DNA of 64,000 nt from Hydrolagus affinis (taxonomy: Eukaryota), in the NCBI GenBank assembly GCA_012026655.1, contig JAAILG010000062.1, positions 1 through 64,000 on the forward strand, read 5' to 3'. The notes under the pieces were generated by a model. The model was not told the DNA's origin, did no database searches, and was given only the letters and a program-made list of their open reading frames with translations. The translations under genes and the position numbers were made by a program. Positions 1 through 62,324 of this stretch are shown piece after piece (positions within the stretch are counted from its first letter, which is position 1; each line of letters begins with the position of its first letter).

Positions 1-242
1 AGTACTTAGATAGGTACAAGTGGAGCACAACTTTACTAAGAAATGAAAGAAATGCAGAATAAAAAATGGTCATCCAGCCTATTCTTCCACATCTACGCAG
101 AACCTACCCACTCTATGCTATGTCCCAAGGGAAAGTATAGATTCTCCTTCAACCACAAAGTCAAAACCTCCAAAATATTCATCCAACAATGTGCCACAAC
201 TTAATCAGAACAGAAATTGTATTTTATACGTTAAATATCAAA

Positions 243-4072: not shown

Positions 4073-7000
4073 TTTGTTTTATGGACTGTATATGTTGGTC
4101 CAAAACCAACAGGAGGTGTAACAGCTTGAATTACACCATACATGCAGTTTTCATATTCTAATGAAAGCAGCAATGTGTGACATAATGAAGATGTGCTGGC
4201 AACTGACTTTACTCTCAGACACCACTATAGAAAGAGCAATCTCAGGCATAACCTCCATTACTCAGTGGTAATAACAGAGTCAGCTGTAATCATTGGTCCA
4301 CCCATGACTGATTTATTCTTTCCTGATCCTCTCTCTATAGGAGGTTTGGGTAGGACAGAAAGTGTTGGTGCTGGCTGATTGCCAATGTTGACTGCAGAAT
4401 GAAGACATGGCTCATCATTCCCATTCTGGGAAAATCTGCAGACCTTTGTGGAGAGAATATTTTTAAGACAATATCCCACAATACTCAGGGACTTACTCAA
4501 AAGACTCATAGAATGCACCTGTAAAATGCATTGATGAAATGCATATAACCTCCCAGCGCATTAAGTTATTTTCAGCCGAAGTAGGAGTGTGATGAATGTA
4601 CTTACAGTTTATCCAAGAAGAGACCAAGAGTTAAAACAACCACCTGATGAATACTATAGATTTGTGTGTGCCAGAACAAATAGATTTGTGTGTGCCAAGC
4701 GCAATTAATTCACAAACACTTCTATAAATGTACATCAATGATCTGCTTAGCATATCTGTACATTGTGGTCCCCATAGAACTACTTCATGTGTGGTGTAGA
4801 TTGTTATTTACTGTGTCTTGTAGCTGAATAGATACACAGTACAGAGAGCTGATGTTTGTCTCTTAATCAAACAGGACAGCTTGTGACCTTCTTCCCCCCA
4901 CCCCCCAACTCTTTCCAATAGCCTGAGACCACATTAATTATGATAAGTGTTGCTCATCTCCAATGAAGTATGTTGGAAAGCAATTATACTGAGGGGAAAA
5001 GGAAACGTTAGATTTGGTTAGTTATTTCCTGACTTTCTGTTCTCTTCACCTAGATTAACCCGACACAACAAATTCCACCTGAATCTGGATTCCCTCCATT
5101 CACACCACATTTCAGAGTGTGCAGAATCTGGCAATAAGTCTTCATTTTAAAATCATAACTTTGAAGTTGGTTTGGTCTAGGTCTTGAAATAACTTCAAAA
5201 TGAAGGACATGTTTAAGAATGACCAAATTCAGAATGCTCTGAAATGAAGATTAGGTCTAGACACAAGGGAATACTTCTCCCAACCAAATACTGTAATAGT
5301 TCATCTGAGCCATGCCCTCAGGATGATCAGAAAAATCACTATGGTACATCAATGGCTCTTCCTTCTTGGGTATAAAAAAAATACACCACCAAAAAAATCA
5401 AGATGATGTGTGTATGTCATCCCTTTGTTTTGTTGAAGTATTTTTTCTAGAATCCGTTGGCCTGGCTCATTGTATGCTCATTGCATTCTTGCAGTTTCCG
5501 TTTCACTTGACTAACAGTTATTATCTTCTCAAGCAGCACCTCTTTATTTCTTTTCAATGTCAATTGTACGAATTATTACTTGAAGGAGCTGCTGCCGAGT
5601 GCACTTTTAATTGTATTCCAGATGAATACACTCAGTTGCAGGGCACTGTGGGTTAATTATTCAGGGTCACATGTTTGTCTGAACAGGTGAATTTTTTAAA
5701 AATCCAAGAATTCCAAATCATTATTTGTTTTAGGTACAGAAGAATTGGGTTATTTTTGCAATTGGATGAGTATATTTTCAGTGCACTATTCAAAATTCAT
5801 GCTGATCCCTTACTCTACATGACAACGTGGGTTATGACAGTAACGAAGGGTAACCACACTAGCACAACTCCACTGAATGGATAGTGAAATATTCATATAT
5901 ATCATTTACCAGAGAAGTGCAGAATGGCAAACGGTGAATTGGCTGCCGACAATACTGTCTGCCCAAGCAGAATTCAAGGCATGATTGTTGGCAATGATTC
6001 TGCTAGGTATTGGAAACCAAAATCAATGCCTCTGATTTATAAGTACAAATTAAATCAATTAAAATGAATTAGTGGTTAGAAATAATAGGCAGGGTCAGTA
6101 ATATACTGAGCTAGACTATTATTAGCAAACATAAATTTGAGATGTTGTGGGTTCAGGTCTGAGTCAATTGAGGTTAACACCAACAAGGATAATAACTTCA
6201 TGTGTTAAATCCAGACACGTCAAATGATTTTTAAACATATGAGAAAAATCCTTACTAAGGTAAAGTAATCAGCACCTGCAGACAAATTAAACAGGTTATG
6301 TGAAAGATAACATTTACTTATAGTGAAGTTAGGTGTAGTGAAACCGTTCCATTGTGCTGATTCATTTACTGAGTGACCAAATGGAACATCATTCCCTGCT
6401 ATAATGAAATTTTTGCCCAGAAGGACTTGTGGACTGTGCTTCACAGATTAGTGGTAACTAGTATACATAGGAAAGTAGGGATATGAAGAAGTCATTAAGC
6501 GCATCTTAATTAAGTAAATTTTCACAACACTTAAGTCAGTTTCAGCACTTTGTTGTTTTGACATCTTAATATGCCTGTATTGGTTTTTGTTTCAGAAATC
6601 CATTCATTTCTTTTTCAATGTTCCAAAGGGCTCTACATTTACTGGATGGACTAATTTTTAGCCTATTCCATAAAGTAACTCAGGGTGAAGCAATCACTTC
6701 TTCAGTTACATTCAGTTTTCTTTTGTTTGTACCCTTGTTCCTCGAAGCAATATACATTCCCCACCTTGGTACATATTAACTTGAGAATGGAGAGGAAAAG
6801 TAGCTGCTATTATCATTCAATATTATTCTGCTGATTAAGAATAATCATCTAATAGTTTCAGAATATAAAAATGAACTAAACATTCATAACTTTGTGCATC
6901 ATAAACAATGAGCAAAACATATTAGGTTTCTTTCATTATCAACTGCTCTATTTAGCTATAAGGATGTTAGTTCAGTGCATGTGTAAACATAACATGAACG

Positions 7001-9740
7001 TGTTTATGTTAAAAATTCCATTGCTGAAAAGAAATCCAGCATTAATTGAAGATAAGAAAATGCATTTGAGGCATTGGAATGGATTGCATTTCACAATGCT
7101 CATTTTAGTCTGGCTTTATTTTGCCAAATAGCTACAATAACTAGAATGCTGAAGCAGCAGGACCTTTTATGATAATGAAGAAAGGTTAGCTGGAGCTGTG
7201 GGCTGTTTGTATTTTATGATTGCCTGTCCTTTTGCATTTTGGATCCATTGATGCAGGAAAGCTTTCAGAAGGTGTCAATGTTGGGTGATTTGCATACTTA
7301 GTGTATTTAAAATGTATGGCACAATTTATTCTGTTTAGATGGTTGCTGATTATTTGCTCCAATTAAGATCATGGTATACATGGTTTAATAAAACTTGTTT
7401 TCACCTTATTAGTACTAGATGCATCTACTGGTGATGGCATACAACACCATTCTTTATGAGTTTAATAGATCAAAAATCCACAAGCACTAAACACAAGTGG
7501 AAGAACAATTGTAGGGCAATAGATATTCTTGTTTTTCTGTGAACATCAGCAGGTTAGATTAAAAACCCTTCAAGAATGTCCTATGTGTTGAAAGCTAACA
7601 ACCCTTTATCAACTATACATGCATAATATACATATACCATATACATATATATATATACAGTATACAGAATTACCTGTACAGTATAGGGCAATGCTCCGAT
7701 TCAATCTTTGAACTTTTCAAACTAATTAAGTGATATAAGGTTGTAGCTGCTGAGTTACGAGGCAATAAACAGTTTGCTTGCCTCAATGCCTGACTATTTT
7801 AAGAGCTTCAATTGGCTAAAGCTTCAGGCAGTGGTATTACGGGTAACATCTTTATAATTTTGCTAAACTTCTTGTTAAATTGCATCTGGTTCACATGTAT
7901 TTCATTCACAGAAGGTTGCACAGCTGTGAAGCTTTTTTGCTTAAGCAAAACAATTGATGACAAATGTAGCTTAATCCTGATTGCATTTTGTTCAAATGTA
8001 CAGTACTATAATATCAGGAGGATAAATTAAACTTTCATGCTTTTTAAAATCTCTTATAAATATAAGGGTGTGGCTTTTAAAGCAGGTTCGACTGCACAAT
8101 CTAGCTTTGCTTTTAGTGAAGGGTCTAAAAGTGATAATTCACATTTTTACATTTAAATTTAATTATGTTAAGAGGCTATAAAAATATGGTGAGCGCAAAA
8201 AATGTTTATTTTAAAGAAAGTTTTTTTAATTCTATTTATAGCCTTTTTAACTACCTTTTTCATTGAAGGGAGGCATAACATTGGGGGGACAAAGCCAGGA
8301 ATAAAGGTCCAAAGCAATGGAATTGGGAATAGCAAAATAATAACATCAGAGTTATTGGAGCAGGGACCAAGATGAGAAAGAGACAAATGACCAAAGAGGA
8401 AAGGAACCAGAATGAGGGAACAGATTTAGGGAGAGATTCAGAGAGTTTGGTATCAAAGAGAGGAAACTTAGAGTGATGGAGCTCAGACAGTGAAGGACAC
8501 AATGAGGGAGCTCAGAAAGTGGGGATTGGAGTGAAAGGGCTCTGGAAGTGAGGATCAGAGTCAGAGAACTCAGAGTGAGAGGCTGTTTGTGTCTCCATTA
8601 TAAGTAATATATACTGCCTAAAATAAATCATATTTTTTCATGAGCAGACAATCTAATGTAACCCCATTCAAATGCTACACATGGAAAATGAAGCTTGTAG
8701 CGGAGAATGCGGTGGGCAGGATGCTTGATCAGCAACACGCAGCACCACAGAATGACAGGACCCAGATCAAATTCCCCTCATTATTGTTGACTTCCCAATC
8801 TCGACTCCGCTGTTGTGCGTAGATGCTGACTGGAGAGCAGGCGTCTCGCAATGCGGTGAAGGGAAAACTGGAGGGAGAGCAATCACTGGGACTTTGTTAC
8901 TCCTCCTCTAGGGGTTGGATGAAGAACAGCATTAACAAAAGTCTAGCAGCAGGTCACCCACCCTGAGGATGGATGGCTGGTGAAACCTGTGCAGGAACAA
9001 AAAAAAGGGAAATATAGAGATTTCATACCCTCATTAAGAAAACTCATAGAAAACTAACTTAAGTGATTGCCACAGTCTTATAATCTGATAGTCATGAATA
9101 ATGTTCATTTATCTTTTACATTTGTAATGCAAAAAATCAGGGTGGAAATAAGTGATTTTCAAATTTTAGATTTAAAACTATATTCGTGCCTTGTCTTCTA
9201 CTGTTCATTAGAGCCATTTGACTTGTACATAAATCAACATTATGCAGTGATTGAATGCTAATCATACTTTTTTTGCATTAAAATGGACTGGAATGCCTCT
9301 GAAATGAATGGGGAAATTTGAATTTTTGGATGCACTTTGCGTCTATGCCAATTGCACCTAAGTGGATTTGACAATCTGAAACACATAGGTGAGATCAGAA
9401 AAAGTTGAATGTCTGCCTCCCACCCAGACGTCTGCAGATTAAGTCAAAGGACTGTCTATCAACCTGTCACAAACAGAACACGTTTCATCAGTTCTTGGCA
9501 CGGCTGATAGATGGAAGGCCCCGCTGTGTTGGGACAGAAAATAAACAACAATCAACTGTTCCTGCTGCAAGCACATCTCACATTGGTCAATAGCAAAGAA
9601 TCATAACACTGCGCTAGAAGAAAATATCTATGTATTGAGCTAAAGCTATCATCTAGCATGACGGGTGAGAGTCACAACAAGAAATTACAAATGACAATCA
9701 GGAGGGGAAATTAATTAAGAAAGTAATAAAAATAAATTAT

Positions 9741-14075: not shown

Positions 14076-14571
14076 AAGAATATTCTACCCAGTTAGCTGT
14101 GCCCAGAGAAAATACTCGATTCCTTCTGAATATATATGGTTAAAATAAACCTCCTAACCTTGTTTTTTGAAAGAATGCCTGTTTTTTGTATTTTGTGATT
14201 GGCACTGACGTTATTCTGTTTCAAACCCCTGAGGTTTATTCTTGTGTAGCAGTTTTCTTCCCTGATTTTTTTTTAAAAAATGCATGAAAAAGAGTTTGTG
14301 GATTTTGTTTGAAAAGCAGACTTTAGTAGAAATCACAACTTGATTCATGTAAGCAGTTCACCTGGTCCATGCTCATCTCATGACATCAAGTACATTTATC
14401 AGCTGAGTGACGTGTTTTGACGTCAACAAATGTGAGTTATTCATTCATCATATGGATGCATGAAGCATGCACATTAACTGTCATCGGTATACTTTGAACC
14501 AATAGCTCTGATGTAATATGGCTGCTGAGGTCACTGCAGAATAAGACCACATATCATTTCAACCCTGACAT

Positions 14572-14986: not shown

Positions 14987-15272
14987 GAGTCCTGTACCTC
15001 AGTGATTAGAGTCTCGCCTTGAGAGACCTGGGTTTGATTCCCAGAAGAGAGAAACCGTGGACAAGTTTCCTTACTCCACACGGCTGATAATAATCCCTCA
15101 AGAAAGCCACCACCCCCCCCAAAAAAAAAAATCCATGACTGTTGCCACATTTTGCCCCAAAATATACAGTCAATTCACTTTACAGTATATTCTGTGAAGC
15201 AATTTGGTACTCCTAGAAGCCGTGAAAAGTGCAAGAAATCAGATGCAAGAAATATTATTTTTTATTATTATT
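14987..15272 (+). mobile_element. Young tRNA-derived SINE with internal deletion
   Basis: GAGTCCTGTACCTCAGTGATTAGAG...GACCTGGGTTTGATTCCC (A/B boxes) and tail ...TCAGATGCAAGAAATATTATT. Possible 7-bp TSD TATTCCA/TATTCAA. Confidence 0.9.
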
Positions 15273-18503: not shown

Positions 18504-19878
18504 TATATATCCTGAATAAAGGTGGGGGATGCTTTAGGGAACCACATGCCATCATAAACTGAAGATCGAGCGAGTTTATAACAGCCCATGAAATGTTATT
18601 GTTAACTCTCTATATTTTCAGTCCTAATACACTTCAATTTCATCTTTATTGTAAAACATTTCTTTGAGCATGCTTTATCAAAGCGTTGTTAGCCCATCTC
18701 TGACCTTGGTAAATGTCTACAATGTACATGCATTACTGGAAATCTATCTATTTAAATAATCGCTCTATAGTGTGTAACATTAAAGTATTTTGGTAAATTC
18801 CACTGATCTTGGTTTAAAAAACGTTCAATTTGTGCATAAAGGATATTGCACGACAGAACACCAAACTTGTGACAGAGTGGGAGGATGTTAGTCCACGTGC
18901 AGGATTTCATGCACTGTAGGTTCCTGATCCTTGCTGGCCTATAAGATAAAGGGGAGCAGGGCTAAGTGGCTGATTGGAAGGAAGAGAGGGAAAATCAAGC
19001 TGTAAATCAGTGTGATCTATCCCCATAATTTACCTCCCAGCGGCTGGTTATGGTGCAGCATTGGCGAGAGGCCAAAGGACTGAATATCTCCATACCCTTC
19101 GGTCCACAGACAGCACATTACACTTAAGAACCTAGTAAACAGGAGATTTAAAATGTGAGGGAGAAATCATTTCAAACTTAAAACAATAGGAATGTAGCTG
19201 AGCAGAATGAAGTGGTTCATAGGGATTTGGATTTGTGCTATATCTGAACGGTTGGAAACCTACAACAGGTCAATCAGACCAGCATCTGTAGATTTTTCTT
19301 GTCCCATACAATGGTAAATACAACAACCAAGTAAGCACTGAAACAGGCGGTTTTGTTTCACTTAAACTGCCTATGCAGCTACATATACTTCTGCATGTCA
19401 CCTGTTCACAGAAACTGAGCTCACTTTGGCGGCTTTCAATGGTTCAGGCTTATTGCATAGTATTCTCAGACATCTTCGAACTGCTTTTTGTAAAACTCTG
19501 GTTCAGAGTTCAAGTGTGATTACATACACTCATGCCATGGTACGATGCTGCGTTTAAAACCTATGGAAGCCTTGGTTGTATTGGCTTAAAAGCACCATAG
19601 GCAATCTCTCCTGGGATGAAGTAAATCCTATCAGCCTCCTATAGTGTCCCAGCTGTCAGTGTCAAAACTAGCTTAACCTTTTTTCTTGCTGTGCAGAAAA
19701 AAACGATTTTTTTTGCAGTATTTTCACCATGGTGAGCTAATCCTAATGATTCAGAGCATGGTGCTATAAATAGTGAGTGGGCTGCAGAACATAATGTTGA
19801 GGTTTACCTTACACACCCTCGGCTCTCCGCTGGTGGTAATGATCAGATTAAGAAATTCAAATATTCCATCTTCAAGCA

Positions 19879-48516: not shown

Positions 48517-51500
48517 CTGGCCATTTTGGCAGGGCTGTCTGGCAGCTCTTTAGAAAGTCTATCAATCCCCCGTAATAAACACTTTTTTGACTCAGTCTGG
48601 AGAGCTCCTTGACAAAAAAGCTAACTCGGCACACAAACATCATAGATCAGTAATGGTTCTATATATTATTAAGTACTACGATTTTCCAAGGTACGTTTTG
48701 TCACTTTGGTCTGTACACATAAGGACAGTTTTGGACGATGTGGCTTGAAAGGGTGAGCAAACTAAATTATTAATAATCTGAATACCAATGTGATAGAAAC
48801 AGATGTCTGCAGAAAGCTTTATTTGGTATTACATAACCACATACAGCATTTGATGACAAGTTTCCCCTGCTGTCACTGAAATCAGACCTTGTATTCAAAT
48901 CACAGTTATATTCCCCTGTTGAGTAGCATTCTTTACACCCTCCAGATATTTACCAAGTACACTCGCATTGCTGTCATTTAATGGTTGTTCCCTCCTTTCT
49001 GTGTGCAATCCTAATTTCAAGATCTGAAAAAGATGTGACAGCTCTTCTAGAAGATTAACTCTCTGCCTCTTTTCACCTGTCATTTGTAACTTGCAGTCAC
49101 GCACTGATAGTTCAGTTCATTGGGAAGTCGTCAACATAGCTCTAATTAAAGGCTCTTAATATAGCGATTAATTATACATCTACATTTCCTCCACTGGTTA
49201 TTAGGGTGGTATGATTTTTTTCAGCTCTTAACAGTTACAATTACGATTTTTTTCTCCTCTTTAAGTTTTGATTTATTGTAGTGCAGTGCTCCCCCATTAT
49301 ATGCCCACTCTTTAGTTTCTCCACCATCACACATTTCACTTAAAAGCCAGGGGGCTACAGAGTCCCTCACAGTTGCACTCAACGGTGCCCTGTGATGATC
49401 TAACAAGAGATGTGCATCACACTGCCAGTTGGACCCCCTTGTCAATCTCCTTCTCAGCCCCCCCATCTACTCTTCCCTGCTGGCACACTTTGCCAATGAA
49501 GTGAAGTGAAATGCTTTACTTAGTAGCATGGGTAAGCATTGGTCAAACTATCGCATTAAGGGCAGCAGGGTTTCCAATTCCATTTGAAGTAGATTCAACC
49601 ACAAGTGAACTGAGACAGAACCCAGCATTCCACTTCCAGACTGCTCCAGATCTAGTTGTTTCATTTTGTAGTGTAATATCATCCATAACTATTTATCTAG
49701 CCCCCATTCATTGAGCTGAAGCCTTGTGACGTTTCACACTGTGTTTGGGTGTAAGATGTATGCAAATAAGCATATCTTATACACATGCTGATATGTAACC
49801 GAATATAAAAGTGCTGTATTTGTAATAAGATTGTGTCTCTGTCTAAACAATGTAACTATATTTTAATATGTAGATGTTATACTTTTTTTTAACGGTGGGT
49901 GGGGGTGTATGTACAGTTGTATGTTGGGAGTGAAAGCTGATAAAACTCAAAGCTCCAAAGGGAATCTGAGTTTGCATACTTATTTGCACTGTCGTAATGG
50001 TGACACAAATATGACCTATCTCATTTTCTAGTGTGGTAGAGTAGTTCTGCATTATATCTATTGGTGATGGTGTGTTGGTCAGTCTCAGAAAGAGATTGGG
50101 GCATCTGCATGTAATGATAATGTAGAAGTGAATATGCATCTATTTTCTTATGTGGTGCAGAACATGGCTATGTGTTTTGGAAAATTGTGAACTAACCCTG
50201 CGGATCATGGCTCGGATTCAGGATATGACTTTGTAGACAGCCAAACTATGAACCTTCAAAGACGAGCACCAAGTAAATGAAATTCTCATGTCTATAATGT
50301 TCAGGGCTGGTTTGCATGCAACGATATAAAAATGAATAATAGGCCATTGAAAATAAAACACCATTTGGAATCATTTTCTTAAATAACCCCTTTCTCTCAT
50401 ATCTCTCGTGAACAATGCTATCTGTTGTTACAACTGCAGTTCTCCATGCATTGGGAAGTTCATGTTCCATGATTTCCCCAGTGACTGAAAATTATGACAG
50501 CCAGATAACTTAAATGTATTAATAACTGAGTCCTGTTTGTAATTGGTTACTAATTAAATCATTATTGTGTCTCTATTCAGCAGTTATCTAGTCCATGCAC
50601 TGAAAGGAGACTGAGTTTTATCCACTCTAAAATAAGATTCAAACTCAGCTCTCTCCCATTCGCACAATAAACTGAAAGTATTCAGAGTTTGGTTCCACCT
50701 TGCTGTACTTTCCAACTTAGCAGTTAAGACGCTGCAGAGACATGATCAGCCTTGCTCTGCATTGCATTCAGTCTGACTTAAAACCAGCAGCATTTTAAAT
50801 ACAAAAATATGACCCATTTTATTCAAGGTTTGAAGATATAATTGAACAGTGATAACACGCAAGTGTGTTATTGAGGGGAAGGTGGGCCATTTAAAGGGCT
50901 TAGTTTATCTTTCAATCAAGAGCCTATTCTTGATACACTTATACAGTATTATTGCTCAAATGGAACTCCATCCTCTATTAGAACCTGCTTTCATCAGTTT
51001 AGTACAAAACACCTGCATTTTTCTTTGTTAACAGAAAGCACTGTTTACCAGCGCAAGTATTTAATCTTTGTTTAAGCAGAAAATTTTGTATTCAGCTTGT
51101 AAGGTCATCTGTTTCCAGCATCTGATAGTTCGCCATCACCTGGCATTGCCCTTCCTCAATCTTTGAGTGCTGTCATCAGTTTCATAATTGTTCCAGTTAT
51201 CTGTTTACCACTTGCCTTCATTTTTGACGTTCTGTCGAACAGTCATGTGAGCTCTCTATAGAAGATGGAGGTGGAAAAACACACAGGATATTGACAAAAC
51301 AAAACCATTCTTCTTTTTTGTCACTTTGTAGCTGATGGACTGACCTCAAATGTTGCCTGGTGCCACCAGAGAACAGTTTCTTTCCTGCTTGTGTCTGCCA
51401 GCTGCTGTGGAGTTGTGCATCCTGCATTCTGTGAGGTGAGCGAATATTAACTGGGTAAGGCTAGTGACAGACGAGTCCATTCTGCTCTTAGACTTACTCG

Positions 51501-58324: not shown

Positions 58325-58420
58325 AGGGTTGCCACCTAGATGGCGTGGTACCCACGTTATTTGATGATACCCGTGATGAGAGAAAACTGTCAGAAGCTTC
58401 TGACGGGAGAAATGTACGGT
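58325..58420 (+). mobile_element. Possible hAT (Tip100-like) MITE terminus
   Basis: AGGGTTGCCA terminal motif followed by CpG-rich sequence containing CCCGTGA and ACGGGAGA subterminal-type motifs. Confidence 0.4.
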
Positions 58421-58916
58421 GTTTTCTTTTTCTTACCACTAATGCTTCTTGTTTGCCTGCAGCAACTGATTTCAAGTTGTAGATGTGGGAAGAACTTGTT
58501 TGTCCAAAAATGAATGGGATGTGGGGGGTTGTCAAACCAAGTTTTCTCTTCCTCTAGTATCTTACTCAAGTGGCCATTATCGAGTATTGTCAGACTTCAT
58601 CCCCGTTATTTTACTTTGTGTAATTGTAATTTGCTCCTGGATTAGCTATCCTGGATTAGCGATGTTTTTGAAATACATCTGTGAACATTGCAGCTCCTTA
58701 CATATTCAAATGTCAAGTGTGACTGATGCATTGGTGCCTAATTTTGTGCTTGTTAATATTACTATTTAACATGTTTATTTAAAAGGTTCATAAAGTACTA
58801 CACAAGTGCCTATTTTGGGGTATGGATTAAATGGCATTTCTGATACTCTTGATCCAACCATTTTCAAGGGAGATAATCTCTTGTGGATTAACTATCATTC
58901 TGCAATTTTGATGAGT

Positions 58917-58969
58917 TTGTGTGCATGCGTATGTGTATGTGTGTGTGTGTGTGTGTGTATGTGTGTGTG
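58917..58969. repeat. Imperfect (TG)n microsatellite
   Basis: Directly visible. Confidence 0.95.
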
Positions 58970-59598
58970 TATTAGTATCTATGGATTTAACGGAATAATT
59001 TCCAATAGTCTTTCAGGGAGCTGTTGGTGCAGAAAGTGGTGAATACTGTCCTCAAAATGACAGTGTAGACAGCCATTTATTCCCAGTCTTTCACTGCCTG
59101 CCTTTTATAGGGCAAATTCTCTATCTTTAAATGTACTTTGGTGTTGACGGATTTGTGATACTATTAAAGCACAACCTTACCACACTGACCATCATGGGGT
59201 TGGACTGGGACAGTTTTAATCTAACATAAAAGATAAAATACCGCAGTATGTAGTACATAATTTTAAGAACATGCTTAATGCTTTTGTTTGCTGCCAGCTC
59301 TCTCAATGTTTTCTTTATCTTTATCATCATCATTTTACACAGCTCACAATTATAACAAATCTGCATTTCTGTTATAAAACTATAGAACCATTCCCAATGT
59401 TTTCCCATTGCATCCTCTGTTAATTTAGGGAATAACAGTCACTACAGTACCTGCCTTGTTACAGCATGCAGAATGCTTGGCTTCCGTGGAGCATATTATA
59501 ATGAGGAGAGGGTTAGTGTCTAATTTCCTGACAGGTTGAACAGAGAGGAAAGAAAGCTAAGGGAGAGTGATGGAAGAGCTAGTTCCTCAGAAATAAAG

Positions 59599-59939
59599 CA
59601 AAAATCTATTCTGTTGTGTGTTGTCGTCTTTCGCATCACGATTTTTCATTTTGTACCCGTGCCTTTCTCTTTTATTCTTTTTTATAATGCATTGTTCTAA
59701 TGGTTTCTTTCTTTTTTTCCCTCCCAATTTGTCCCTTTCCTGTGCAAAACTGACAATGCTGGATACCTTGTGTTTCTGTTCAACTGGTTTGAATCCATGC
59801 GTACATTGACTGCTAATGTTTTTGCAGGAAATAACAGTTATGATTCAACAATCCCCATCTCATTTTGCCAAATCTTTTAAAATGCGATTTCCTTCTCTGT
59901 TACCACAAGGAGGGATTTCTGTTGCCTAAAATAATAACT
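59599..59939 (+). promoter_or_regulatory. Extended AG-exclusion zone, 3' splice site and candidate alternative exon (59828-59939)
   Basis: No AG from 59599 to 59825, long pyrimidine tracts, branch-like GCTAAT followed by GTTTTTGCAG|G, and candidate donor ACT|GTATGT at 59940. Confidence 0.5.
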
Positions 59940-62324
59940 GTATGTACTTTCAATACTCTTGCTAAAAGGGAAAAATCAACAATATGGCTTACGTTTCCTG
60001 AAATAGCAATTATTATAGTCTATATTTAGACCATTTGCTTCATAACTGATTTAACTATTATTTCAGATGCCAAAGTATTTGTTAAGATGATGAATCAAGT
60101 GGAATACAATAGTCATAAACCACAGTTGTACCACAGATCATGCAAGTATGAATGCACTACATATTCTACAGTGGAGGGTTTTAATCAAACAGCCATTTGC
60201 TGGTTTTGAATCAATGTTCACTGGTGTCTGCTGTGTCACTTGAACAGCCTCTTGTGCACGATACATCATTTGACACGATTCAGGATAGTCAGAATGGTAT
60301 GCCATCCACTGCTGATCTTGGTAGACTTGGTTGTTTAAACAGGGTAGACTGGACCAGTGCCTAATATTATCCTTACAGCAGCTACTTTGGATGAAAGTGC
60401 AAAGTCTCATGTTCCATCACTTGGACATTAATCTAATGTACAGCTTCCAAAATTTTAGGATGCTGAATATTATATAGTTTTCTTCGCTGGCACCCTAAAC
60501 TTTTAAAATGCATTCTCCTCAAAAATATAACAAACATGCTATATATATAAATATATATATATGTGTGGCAACACCTGAGGAAATTGACATGTAATGTTAT
60601 GTTACTATAGCAGTTTATAATCTCTGTATCAAAATACAGATGAATCGTGCTTTATCCAATTGGCCTGGGTGGACAAAAAAGTCACTTAGAATTAGATTTG
60701 CGTGTAGCCAGAATGGCGGCCTGACCAAAACTAAGGCCTTTAGTCACTAAGCTTCTGCAGTTCTGTAAAATTGTATTTTTTGGCAAATATGCAGAGCTTT
60801 TGTATTGGTAGAGTATTCACAAACGGAGGTATTGTGAAAACAGTGTACAGCTGCCGAAATGTTGCTGAATGCCATGTGGAATTCATGTGAACCATAGACC
60901 TGCAAACTTGGTTGAATACTGATATTTAGCATTCAAATAGAGGCGTGGACATGCAATTAGTATTAGTGTGCTATTCACTACATGTTACTGATCTGCAAAG
61001 TGACACTGCATGAAAATCGAATTACAGGAATGTCAAGTTCCTCTTATTGACTTGCAAACAGTATAAGTATCAGATGCGTTGCTATTGATTGGGTTTCTCA
61101 CAATGCCCTTAATGCCCACATAAATGCAAGGTGGGAATATTTTGAACCTCTACCCGCCGCTTCTGAAGCAGATATTTTATCCCAGTGTAATTTTTCCAGA
61201 AAGGCAGATACCCAAGTCATTAGGAGGTTAAAGGTTTAATAAGTATGGAGCATTGGACATCTGCCATAAGCTGAAGGGGAAAACTTGGAGTTCAGCTGCT
61301 ATGAGTGTTCATGTAAAACGTGCAGCAACATGAATCCACTTAGTCCATTGCAGGTAAAAACAACATCAAGTATCACAGCACAAACCCTATCAAACTAAAT
61401 GCACACTTTATATTCGGCCTCACATTCTCCCGCTGCCCAGTCAAGCCTAATTGTCAATGCTTGTGCTGCACTTGCACAACACGTTCGTTCATGTCTCTGG
61501 TTTTCATGGTTGTGACATGATAATAGGATCCACTTGTAAACTTGCTCTTATGGGTTAAATGAGACTGTTCTGCACAGATATTCAACAAATCGGGTAAAGC
61601 AGTCCATGGCTTTAAAGGCTTTTGCCAAACCATTGAGCAGTGTGTTTCAGTGAATACTGAAGCACTTCTGCATATGTTTCATATACTGTATTCTGTGAGC
61701 TAAAGGCAACACTGTTCAAAACAGGGCCCTATGTTGTCACCATTCAAAGCCATTCAGCATCACACACAAGGGATACGAAAAGGGAAAATAACATTAAAAA
61801 GACCTTTATTGCTTTTTCATTATGCTTCCAAAAGAATGAATATAATTTATAACCAACAGGGTATTCATACAGTGTTCTGTTTGATATAAAAATGTAGATT
61901 GCATTAAATAAAAATTCAATTGAATCTTAATTTGGTGCAGCTAGACTGTATTATAGTGCTTCTGAACCATTCAAAATAATCTGGCTAGTGACCCATTACC
62001 TAGATGTGATTTATTCCCAACCAGAAGACTCAACTAGTTTGAGTCTGAGTCCTTTTGTCACACCAACTTGCTGACTCTGTTTTGGTGAATTCTGCCAGCT
62101 CTTAGCCAAGCCAAGAGACTGAGCAATTTACCTACTCCCTCACTCTTCAGTTGGTAAAAGGGAAGGCTGTTTTAAACAGAAGTGAGTTCAATTTTATCCA
62201 GGAAAATGTTGGCCAGGACTTTGCAGAGCATGGGTTTGCCAATACTGGTTCCTCACAGGTTATTAATTGAACCAAACAGCAGCAAATGTCCTTGGGTTAC
62301 CGACCTGGGGTTCTTAGTTTGACA

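What the first reader, a model, noticed from the sequence alone, without database searches (positions are those of the whole stretch)
59599..59946. 227-nt AG-free zone ending at a strong acceptor: candidate poison or alternative terminal exon
Seen: no AG dinucleotide on the + strand from 59599 to 59825, with several long U/C tracts, then GCTAATGTTTTTGCAG|GAAATAAC and a plausible donor ACT|GTATGT at 59940 (112-nt exon). All three frames stop inside the exon. The phase-1 frame reads (G)NNSYDSTIPISFCQIF*, ending in a CaaX-like CQIF. Rough estimate: if AG is 6-7% of dinucleotides, a gap this long has a chance of about 1e-6 to 1e-7 per gap, though local pyrimidine skew weakens this. Established: long AG-exclusion zones mark distant-branch-point, tightly regulated alternative exons, including NMD poison exons. 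Inference: this is a regulated exon of a large + strand host gene, either triggering NMD or giving a short, possibly prenylated C-terminus. I cannot name the gene.
Basis: partly seen in the sequence, partly recalled or inferred. Interest (0 to 1): 0.7.

Follow-up and report, generated by a model that had tools for sequence, protein, structure and literature searches.

The report
Twin last exons flank AG-free zone
The AG-free stretch lies between two look-alike short exons about 400 bases apart and begins at a conserved polyadenylation-type signal, so it likely belongs to a switch by which a large, still unnamed fish gene would choose between two alternative protein endings; no RNA data show this yet.

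Summary
The 227-nt AG-free run (59599-59825) and the acceptor at 59826-27 are real. An AG gap alone says little here: gaps of 210 and 293 nt nearby end at non-acceptors. The donor at 59940 and the three-frame stops are chance-level.

399 nt before the acceptor sits a same-phase look-alike exon A, (G)NNSHYSTCLVTACRML...RVSV*, against exon B, (G)NNSYDSTIPISFCQIF*. It is the only such pair among 13,588 nearby acceptor pairs of the contig. Exon A's stop is followed by AATAAA (59592-97) and a GU-rich element, joint best of 391 in the contig, inside a 90-nt block unchanged in a relative about 8% divergent. The AG-free zone starts at that AATAAA.

Best reading (0.55): two duplicated alternative last exons of a large + strand gene, where cleavage after A competes with splicing to B from a distant branch point. 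A poison cassette is less likely (0.1). The host gene is unnamed, and the two RNA runs laid gave no test. This scan has noted AG-exclusion zones on other genomes before.

The parts
59427..59428 (+). Acceptor AG of candidate exon A (ttaatttAG|GGAATAACAGT)
   Evidence: repeat D9, 17 of 22 nt like the exon B acceptor; score 6.4, rank 454 of 10,776. Use not shown.
59429..59523 (+). Candidate last exon A, coding part, phase 1: (G)NNSHYSTCLVTACRMLGFRGAYYNEERVSV*, stop TAA 59521-23
   Evidence: (best match to exon B among 8,215 AG-led phase-1 frames, B itself aside). Single copy in the genome search. Its base-level conservation in organism D was not seen.
59512..59517 (+). Possible internal donor in exon A (AGG|GTTAGT), 83 nt after the acceptor
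   Evidence: score 6.0, rank 388 of 9,219. Would make A a composite internal/terminal exon; untested.
59547..59636 (+). Block unchanged in organism D: purine-rich 3' UTR-like part, AATAAA and GU-rich element
   Evidence: 1 change in 59540-59636, against 18 of 191 and 17 of 111 further on; (90-nt run, P about 0.011 under uniform change).
59592..59597 (+). AATAAA poly(A) signal 68 nt after exon A's stop; its last A plus G59598 is the AG that opens the AG-free zone
   Evidence: Joint first of 391 AATAAA in the contig for a GU-rich downstream element (my own score).
59612..59631 (+). GU/U-rich downstream element (5' part of the AG-free zone)
   Evidence: Sequence; unchanged in organism D. Function inferred.
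59599..59825 (+). 227-nt AG-free zone, 68% pyrimidine; candidate branch A at 59648 (-180), 59700 (-128), 59753 (-75), 59809 (-19), 59816 (-12)
   Evidence: Still AG-free in organism D after 17 substitutions and 1 insertion (neutral chance 0.15-0.24). The -19 site loses its T and the -128 site its C in D.
59826..59827 (+). Acceptor AG of exon B (the finding's acceptor)
   Evidence: score 7.4; AG and the next 29 nt unchanged in organism D.
59828..59880 (+). Candidate last exon B, coding part, phase 1: (G)NNSYDSTIPISFCQIF*, stop TAA 59878-80
   Evidence: In organism D: I>F, one silent change, F>L (ends CQIL), stop kept.
59940..59945 (+).
   Evidence: chance-level.
61793..61912 (+). First ATTAAA/AATAAA hexamers after exon B (61793, 61903, 61907): possible end of an about 2-kb 3' UTR
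   Evidence: moderate downstream elements; inferred only.

Best explanation
The AG-free zone lies between two look-alike, same-phase short exons that are likely duplicated alternative last exons of a large + strand gene, and it likely combines the GU-rich downstream element of exon A's predicted poly(A) site with a long pyrimidine tract serving exon B's acceptor. In this model an upstream phase-1 donor either joins exon A, followed by cleavage just after AATAAA 59592 (a 30-residue tail ending RVSV), or skips A and joins exon B from a branch point about 75-180 nt upstream (a 16-residue tail ending CQIF, possibly prenylated). AGs would be excluded between that branch point and B's acceptor. Shown: the sequence features, the A/B likeness, and conservation in a relative. 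Inferred: transcription, splicing, cleavage, branch-point use, translation, and the host gene.
For: A is the best match to B among 8,215 AG-led phase-1 frames in the contig, B itself aside (score 33, next 26; 9 of 8,215 reach the score without the first three residues). It is the only pair scoring 30 or more among 13,588 same-phase pairs of plausible acceptors within 1 kb. A pattern built from the pair has only 2 other matches in 1.1 Gb, both judged chance. AATAAA plus GU-rich element ranks joint first of 391 and lies in a block with 1 change in 97 nt, against 17 in 111 downstream (Fisher p = 1e-4). B's acceptor, stop and the AG-free state are kept in organism D; the proximal -19 branch candidate is not. 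Cumulative T-minus-A skew peaks at 60,503; per-kb skew is +0.021 over 0-60 kb and -0.009 over 62-170 kb (p = 0.002). A + strand first-exon-like block with a strong donor lies in a CpG island about 129 kb upstream on overlapping contig C1027. Homologous 3'-terminal exons with separate poly(A) sites are a described class (PMC3228551, passages).
Against: No upstream coding exon was found in about 129 kb, and no Pfam family passed its cut-off in 438 of 531 exon-like frames of C62, 12 local frames, or 80 of 165 + strand frames of C1027. No protein relative of A or B was found; the 8 phmmer hits are mostly (6 of 8) SRCR repeats sharing CRMLGF. B's 16 codons show 2 replacement and 1 silent change in organism D, no sign of coding constraint. 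About 19 changes fall in 59335-59539, which holds exon A (roughly 9%; positions not listed), so A is not shown to be conserved. Staying AG-free in D has a neutral chance of 0.15-0.24. The A/B likeness rests on 6 identities in 16 residues and was found after the fact. Skew is negative over 1-15 kb, neighbouring kilobases are not independent, and the combined T-A plus G-C skew keeps rising to about 84 kb. Exon B has no canonical poly(A) hexamer for 1.9 kb.
Confidence: 0.55

Rival explanations
1. The two look-alike acceptors and the poly(A) site belong to a non-coding or prematurely terminated transcript, or the AG gap is simply a pyrimidine-rich tract. The peptides are then not made and their likeness reflects an old local duplication or chance.
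For: No coding exon or start found upstream; the upstream first-exon-like block has no ATG-led frame open to its donor in phase 1. AG gaps of 210 and 293 nt nearby end at non-acceptors. No protein relatives. No coding constraint seen in B.
Against: A/B likeness is unique among 13,588 acceptor pairs and both frames share a phase. Ser-Thr and Cys are kept, with one Ser in different codon families (AGT and TCA). The poly(A)-like block is conserved.
Confidence: 0.18
2. Exon A is a composite exon: it either reads through to the poly(A) site or uses its internal donor at 59512 to splice to exon B across a 316-nt intron that holds the AG-free zone, as for Xenopus tpm1 9A9'/9B. B would then be read in frame 0 (33 residues, EITVMIQQ...).
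For: Donor AGG|GTTAGT ranks 388 of 9,219. The layout matches the tpm1 description (bioRxiv 10.1101/2022.03.17.484714, abstract).
Against: Frame 0 of B gains an early stop in organism D (R>*). The A/B likeness is in the phase-1 frame, which suggests both take the same upstream donor.
Confidence: 0.12
3. One reading: exon B (59828-59939) is spliced in between flanking exons and triggers nonsense-mediated decay, possibly as the stop-containing member of a duplicated pair like SCN8A's neonatal exon.
For: The donor GT is kept in organism D, and the 112 nt differ less than the next 111 nt (6 against 17; p = 0.016). The stop lies 59 nt before the donor, just past the recalled 50-55-nt rule. Exon A has a usable donor.
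Against: The donor is chance-level and three-frame stops are expected. Conservation does not drop at 59940 (1 change in 59940-59964). No downstream coding exon was recognised in 110 kb, and skew flattens after about 60.5 kb. A conserved poly(A)-like site sits just upstream.
Confidence: 0.1
4. The conserved block is coding: a third acceptor (cctgacAG|G, 59533-34) opens a frame to the stop at 59698-59700 giving LNREERKLRESDGRASSSEIKQK plus a hydrophobic tail, like a membrane or GPI anchor exon.
For: Acceptor score 7.3. 5 of 6 changes in organism D in 59637-59697 fall at third codon positions and 4 are silent.
Against: Six changes, with three frames to choose from, is weak. The first 90 nt lack even silent changes, which fits a non-coding signal better. 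AATAAA would cut this frame before its stop. No protein relative.
Confidence: 0.05

Closest known systems
Homologous 3'-terminal exons with multiple poly(A) sites, e.g. human capping protein beta (PMC3228551; passages)
   Same: Tandem, sequence-related, same-frame last exons chosen by splicing plus cleavage.
   Different: Here the tails are very short (30 and 16 residues), differ in length, have no known domain, and use is not shown.
Distant-branch-point exons with AG-exclusion zones (Gooding et al. 2006, PMC1431707; Results part 1 and passages)
   Same: AG-free zone over 150 nt before an acceptor, with branch-like motifs and pyrimidine tracts in its upstream half. The paper counts 165 of 67,334 human exons at 150 nt or more.
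   Different: No TACTAAC-quality site; proximal candidates exist; about the first 35 nt of this zone look like a poly(A) downstream element. The paper itself notes long zones unrelated to splicing.
OGDH duplicated exons 4a/4b with a long AG-exclusion zone between them (PMC7969005; passages)
   Same: Ancient exon duplication with a long AG-free pyrimidine tract in the intervening intron.
   Different: OGDH exons are internal, with branch points near the 5' splice site. Here the candidate branch points lie 136 nt or more from A's donor, B carries a stop, and a poly(A)-like site lies between the exons.
Xenopus tpm1 exon 9A9'/9B (bioRxiv 10.1101/2022.03.17.484714; abstract and outline only); PFN2 alternative 3' splice sites (PMC4402522; passages)
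   Same: A proximal cleavage site competes with splicing to a nearby downstream last exon, giving different C-termini.
   Different: In tpm1, 9A is joined to 9B; here A and B look like alternatives of each other. Those cases are experimentally shown.

Membership tests
Duplicated alternative last exons | Two tandem exons with the same intron phase and related sequence | tested here: met
   both phase 1, 6 of 16 residues identical, 27 of 50 nt, unique among 13,588 pairs.
Duplicated alternative last exons | Each exon has a stop and its own poly(A) signal | tested here: inconclusive
   A: stop, AATAAA and GU element, conserved. B: stop kept, but first canonical hexamers 1.9 kb away.
Duplicated alternative last exons | Transcripts join one upstream exon to either A or B | tested here: inconclusive
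   0 reads from 2 single-cell RNA runs of one sample of organism B (27-30% of each read) on 58400-61400; the tool marks this as no test.
Duplicated alternative last exons | An upstream coding exon ending in phase 1 | tested here: inconclusive
   None recognised in about 129 kb; tiny exons would be missed, and the gene may start beyond C1027.
Distant-branch-point (AGEZ) exons | AG-free zone of 150 nt or more before the acceptor | tested here: met
   227 nt; kept in organism D.
Distant-branch-point (AGEZ) exons | Branch-like motif with pyrimidine tract in the upstream part and no good proximal site | tested here: inconclusive
   Motifs at -180, -128, -75, -19, -12. The -19 site is damaged in D; -180, -75 and -12 are kept.
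Distant-branch-point (AGEZ) exons | Lariat mapped to the distant A | not testable with these tools
   Needs lariat sequencing or a minigene.
NMD poison cassette exons | Functional donor, with the stop more than 50-55 nt before it | tested here: inconclusive
   59 nt; donor rank 1,386 of 9,219. The distance rule is recalled.
NMD poison cassette exons | Very high conservation of exon and flanks (recalled hallmark) | tested here: not met
   6 of 112 changes in the exon including a 1-nt deletion, and 17 of 111 just downstream, in organism D.
CaaX-prenylated C-termini | Cys four residues from the end, aliphatic a2, accepted X | tested here: inconclusive
   CQIF, and CQIL in D; a1 is not aliphatic; 0.8% of random frames fit my recalled rule. 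Prenylation itself is untested.
SRCR domain | Pfam SRCR match and flanking SRCR exons | tested here: not met
   Exon A matches no Pfam family itself; only the CRMLGF word is shared with SRCR repeats.

The most novel reading that the evidence does not exclude
An unannotated, ancient pair of duplicated last exons deep in a giant intron truncates a large vertebrate gene into two short isoforms that differ in their targeting tail: a PDZ-ligand-like RVSV end or a prenylatable CQIF/CQIL end. One 227-nt AG-free element would do double duty as cleavage element for the first and distant-branch-point tract for the second.
Probability: 0.15. Interest if true: 0.65.

Novelty: new member of a known kind. 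Interest (0 to 1): 0.4.

Why it matters
If true, it adds an unannotated isoform switch to a large vertebrate gene and gives a compact, testable case in which a poly(A) downstream element and a distant-branch-point tract share one AG-free segment. It also shows that an AG gap alone is a weak signal in this genome: equally long gaps nearby mark no acceptor. The mechanism class is known, and without the host gene the biological meaning is open.

Tried and rejected
RNA evidence: no RNA holder listed. Two single-cell runs of one sample of organism B gave 0 reads on 58400-61400, which is no test.

Host gene: splice and codon scans of C62 and C1027 showed no convincing coding exon. Pfam gave nothing above cut-off; 4 weak hits at E 0.001-0.007. 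93 of 531 C62 frames, 85 of 165 C1027 + strand frames and the C1027 minus strand were not scanned. Rfam gave only tRNA-like hits and one sub-threshold mir-297 match, and was not run on all loci at both thresholds. No contig was found upstream of C1027 or downstream of C62, and no paralogous element for the CpG island.

Protein searches: three word-index searches of longer proteins, PDB and the ESM Atlas (top score 0.83) found nothing; these are weak negatives for 16-59-residue queries. Metagenome patterns found nothing.

RNA structure: z = 0.13 for 59530-59830; no convincing inverted repeat. A minus-strand coding reading of the zone was rejected because organism D has a 1-nt insertion and stops in that 85-codon frame. 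The conserved 60.9-61.4 kb block has four 69-73% copies elsewhere, so it is probably an old repeat and was not counted as 3' UTR support.

Literature: no paper held any of six peptide words; topic searches gave only class comparators. Supplements were not read; the terminal-exon lists of PMC5740500 (passages seen) could bear on the host gene.

Full report
Setting. The window is bases 1-64,000 of contig C62 (170,907 nt) of a 1.11-Gb genome. Earlier notes of this scan call the genome chimaera-like (not tested by me). Contig C1027 (76,397 nt) overlaps the window start by 171 identical bases, giving 247 kb of continuous sequence. No coding exon was recognised in it by splice and codon scans or by Pfam (438 of 531 exon-like frames of C62, 12 local frames, 80 of 165 + strand frames of C1027). 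Both ends are CpG-rich and promoter-like. The upstream one holds a + strand first-exon-like block ending GAGCAG|GTAATA at C1027:7018.

Observation. The AG-free run 59599-59825 is exactly 227 nt and the longest on either strand of C62. The acceptor, donor, stops and peptide are as described. No Markov simulation of 75 passed 171 nt, so the gap is unusual. But gaps of 210 nt (minus strand, 8257-8466) and 293 nt (C1027) end at non-acceptors, so length alone does not make an exon here. The donor at 59940 is chance-level, and 67% of random 112-mers have stops in all frames.

What was missed. A repeat search showed the acceptor and first bases of the exon again 399 nt upstream. In the same phase this exon A reads (G)NNSHYSTCLVTACRMLGFRGAYYNEERVSV*, against exon B's (G)NNSYDSTIPISFCQIF*. 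A is the best match to B among 8,215 AG-led phase-1 frames of the contig, B itself aside. The pair is the only one scoring 30 or more among 13,588 same-phase pairs of plausible acceptors within 1 kb. Without the acceptor filter, 15 of 589,801 pairs reach 33; the others shown look like repeats or low-complexity sequence. These tests were set up after the pair was seen. Sixty-eight bases after A's stop lies AATAAA (59592-97), followed by a GU-rich tract at 59612-31, joint best of 391 AATAAA sites by my score. The AG that opens the AG-free zone is the last A of this hexamer plus the next G.

Conservation. Contigs of coded organism D (three runs of one study; one spans the whole stretch) differ at 40 letters and 2 gaps in 59540-60050. 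Thirty-six letters were listed; I placed the other four near the ends from the piece counts. By segment the changes are 1 of 97 (59540-59636), 18 of 191 (59637-59827), 6 of 112 (exon B to the proposed donor) and 17 of 111 (downstream). The unchanged block covers the AATAAA and GU tract (P about 0.011 for so long a run). The zone stays AG-free, though with a neutral chance of 0.15-0.24. B's acceptor and stop are kept and its end reads CQIL; its codons show 2 replacement and 1 silent change. The -19 and -128 branch candidates are weakened, while -180, -75 and -12 are kept. Exon A lies in a stretch with about 19 unlisted changes in 205 nt, so its conservation is not shown.

Strand. Cumulative T-minus-A skew rises from 15 kb to a peak at 60,503 and then flattens, as expected if a + strand transcript ended near exon B. 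This is soft evidence: 1-15 kb is negative, and the combined skew rises to about 84 kb. The first canonical hexamers after B are at 61793-61912.

RNA. No RNA holder was listed. Two single-cell runs of one sample of organism B gave no reads on 58400-61400, which is no test.

Mechanism. The most likely reading is two duplicated alternative last exons. Splicing to A with cleavage after AATAAA would give a 30-residue tail. Skipping A and splicing to B from a branch point 75-180 nt upstream would give a 16-residue tail and an about 2-kb 3' UTR. The AG-free zone would be A's downstream cleavage element joined to B's long pyrimidine tract. Sequence features and conservation are shown; splicing, cleavage, translation and the host are inferred. 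Confidence 0.55. Rivals: non-coding or chance (0.18), composite exon A spliced to B (0.12), poison cassette (0.10), a coding exon from 59535 with a hydrophobic tail (0.05).

Comparison. Homologous last exons with separate poly(A) sites are described, e.g. human capping protein beta (PMC3228551, passages). Long AG-exclusion zones mark distant branch points but can be unrelated to splicing (PMC1431707, Results part 1). OGDH 4a/4b shows such a zone between duplicated internal exons (PMC7969005, passages). Xenopus tpm1 9A9'/9B is the composite case (abstract). No protein or paper matched either peptide; the phmmer hits were mostly SRCR repeats sharing CRMLGF and were rejected.

Verdict. A real feature, probably a new member of a known kind, with more structure than first reported, but with neither RNA support nor a named gene. 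Interest 0.4.

Noticed in passing
G000:C1027:76227-76397 = window 1-171: Contig C1027 overlaps the window start by 171 identical bases and extends the region 76 kb upstream; its first 7 kb are a CpG island with a + strand first-exon-like block ending at C1027:7018.
   Followed up: partly
L012:6200-6907 (C62 about 170,200-170,907): CpG-rich, TATA-like, promoter-like end of the contig with a very strong minus-strand acceptor at C62:170360 (score 16.5); direction of the gene unclear.
   Followed up: partly
window 8257-8466 (minus strand): 210-nt AG-free, pyrimidine-rich run on the minus strand ending at a non-acceptor.
   Followed up: partly
L042:about 5050-5345: 293-nt AG-free pyrimidine tract ending at a non-acceptor, about 885 nt upstream of the window.
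   Followed up: no
window 14144-14200: A second AATAAA with an equally high GU/U-rich score on +, close to the minimum of the cumulative T-A skew at 15,251.
   Followed up: no
window 49458-49531 and 19697-19731: Exon-like segments with strong sites that end in an ATG context (ATG+G before the donor in the first, CACCATG before the donor in the second); the first would give Met-Gly-Asn-Asn-Ser if joined to A or B. Could be chance.
   Followed up: no
window 60876-61387: Block only about 4% divergent in organism D but with four 69-73% copies elsewhere in the genome: an old repeat, perhaps retained.
   Followed up: partly
window 59451-59527 (minus strand): Minus-strand exon-like segment with a fair acceptor and donor overlapping exon A (frame window:59428-59556:-); no Pfam match.
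   Followed up: partly
L003:9389-9460, L008:5807-5869, L009 (three sites), L011:7159-7230, L040:4833-4889: tRNA-like Rfam hits, probably heads of tRNA-derived SINEs (inferred).
   Followed up: no
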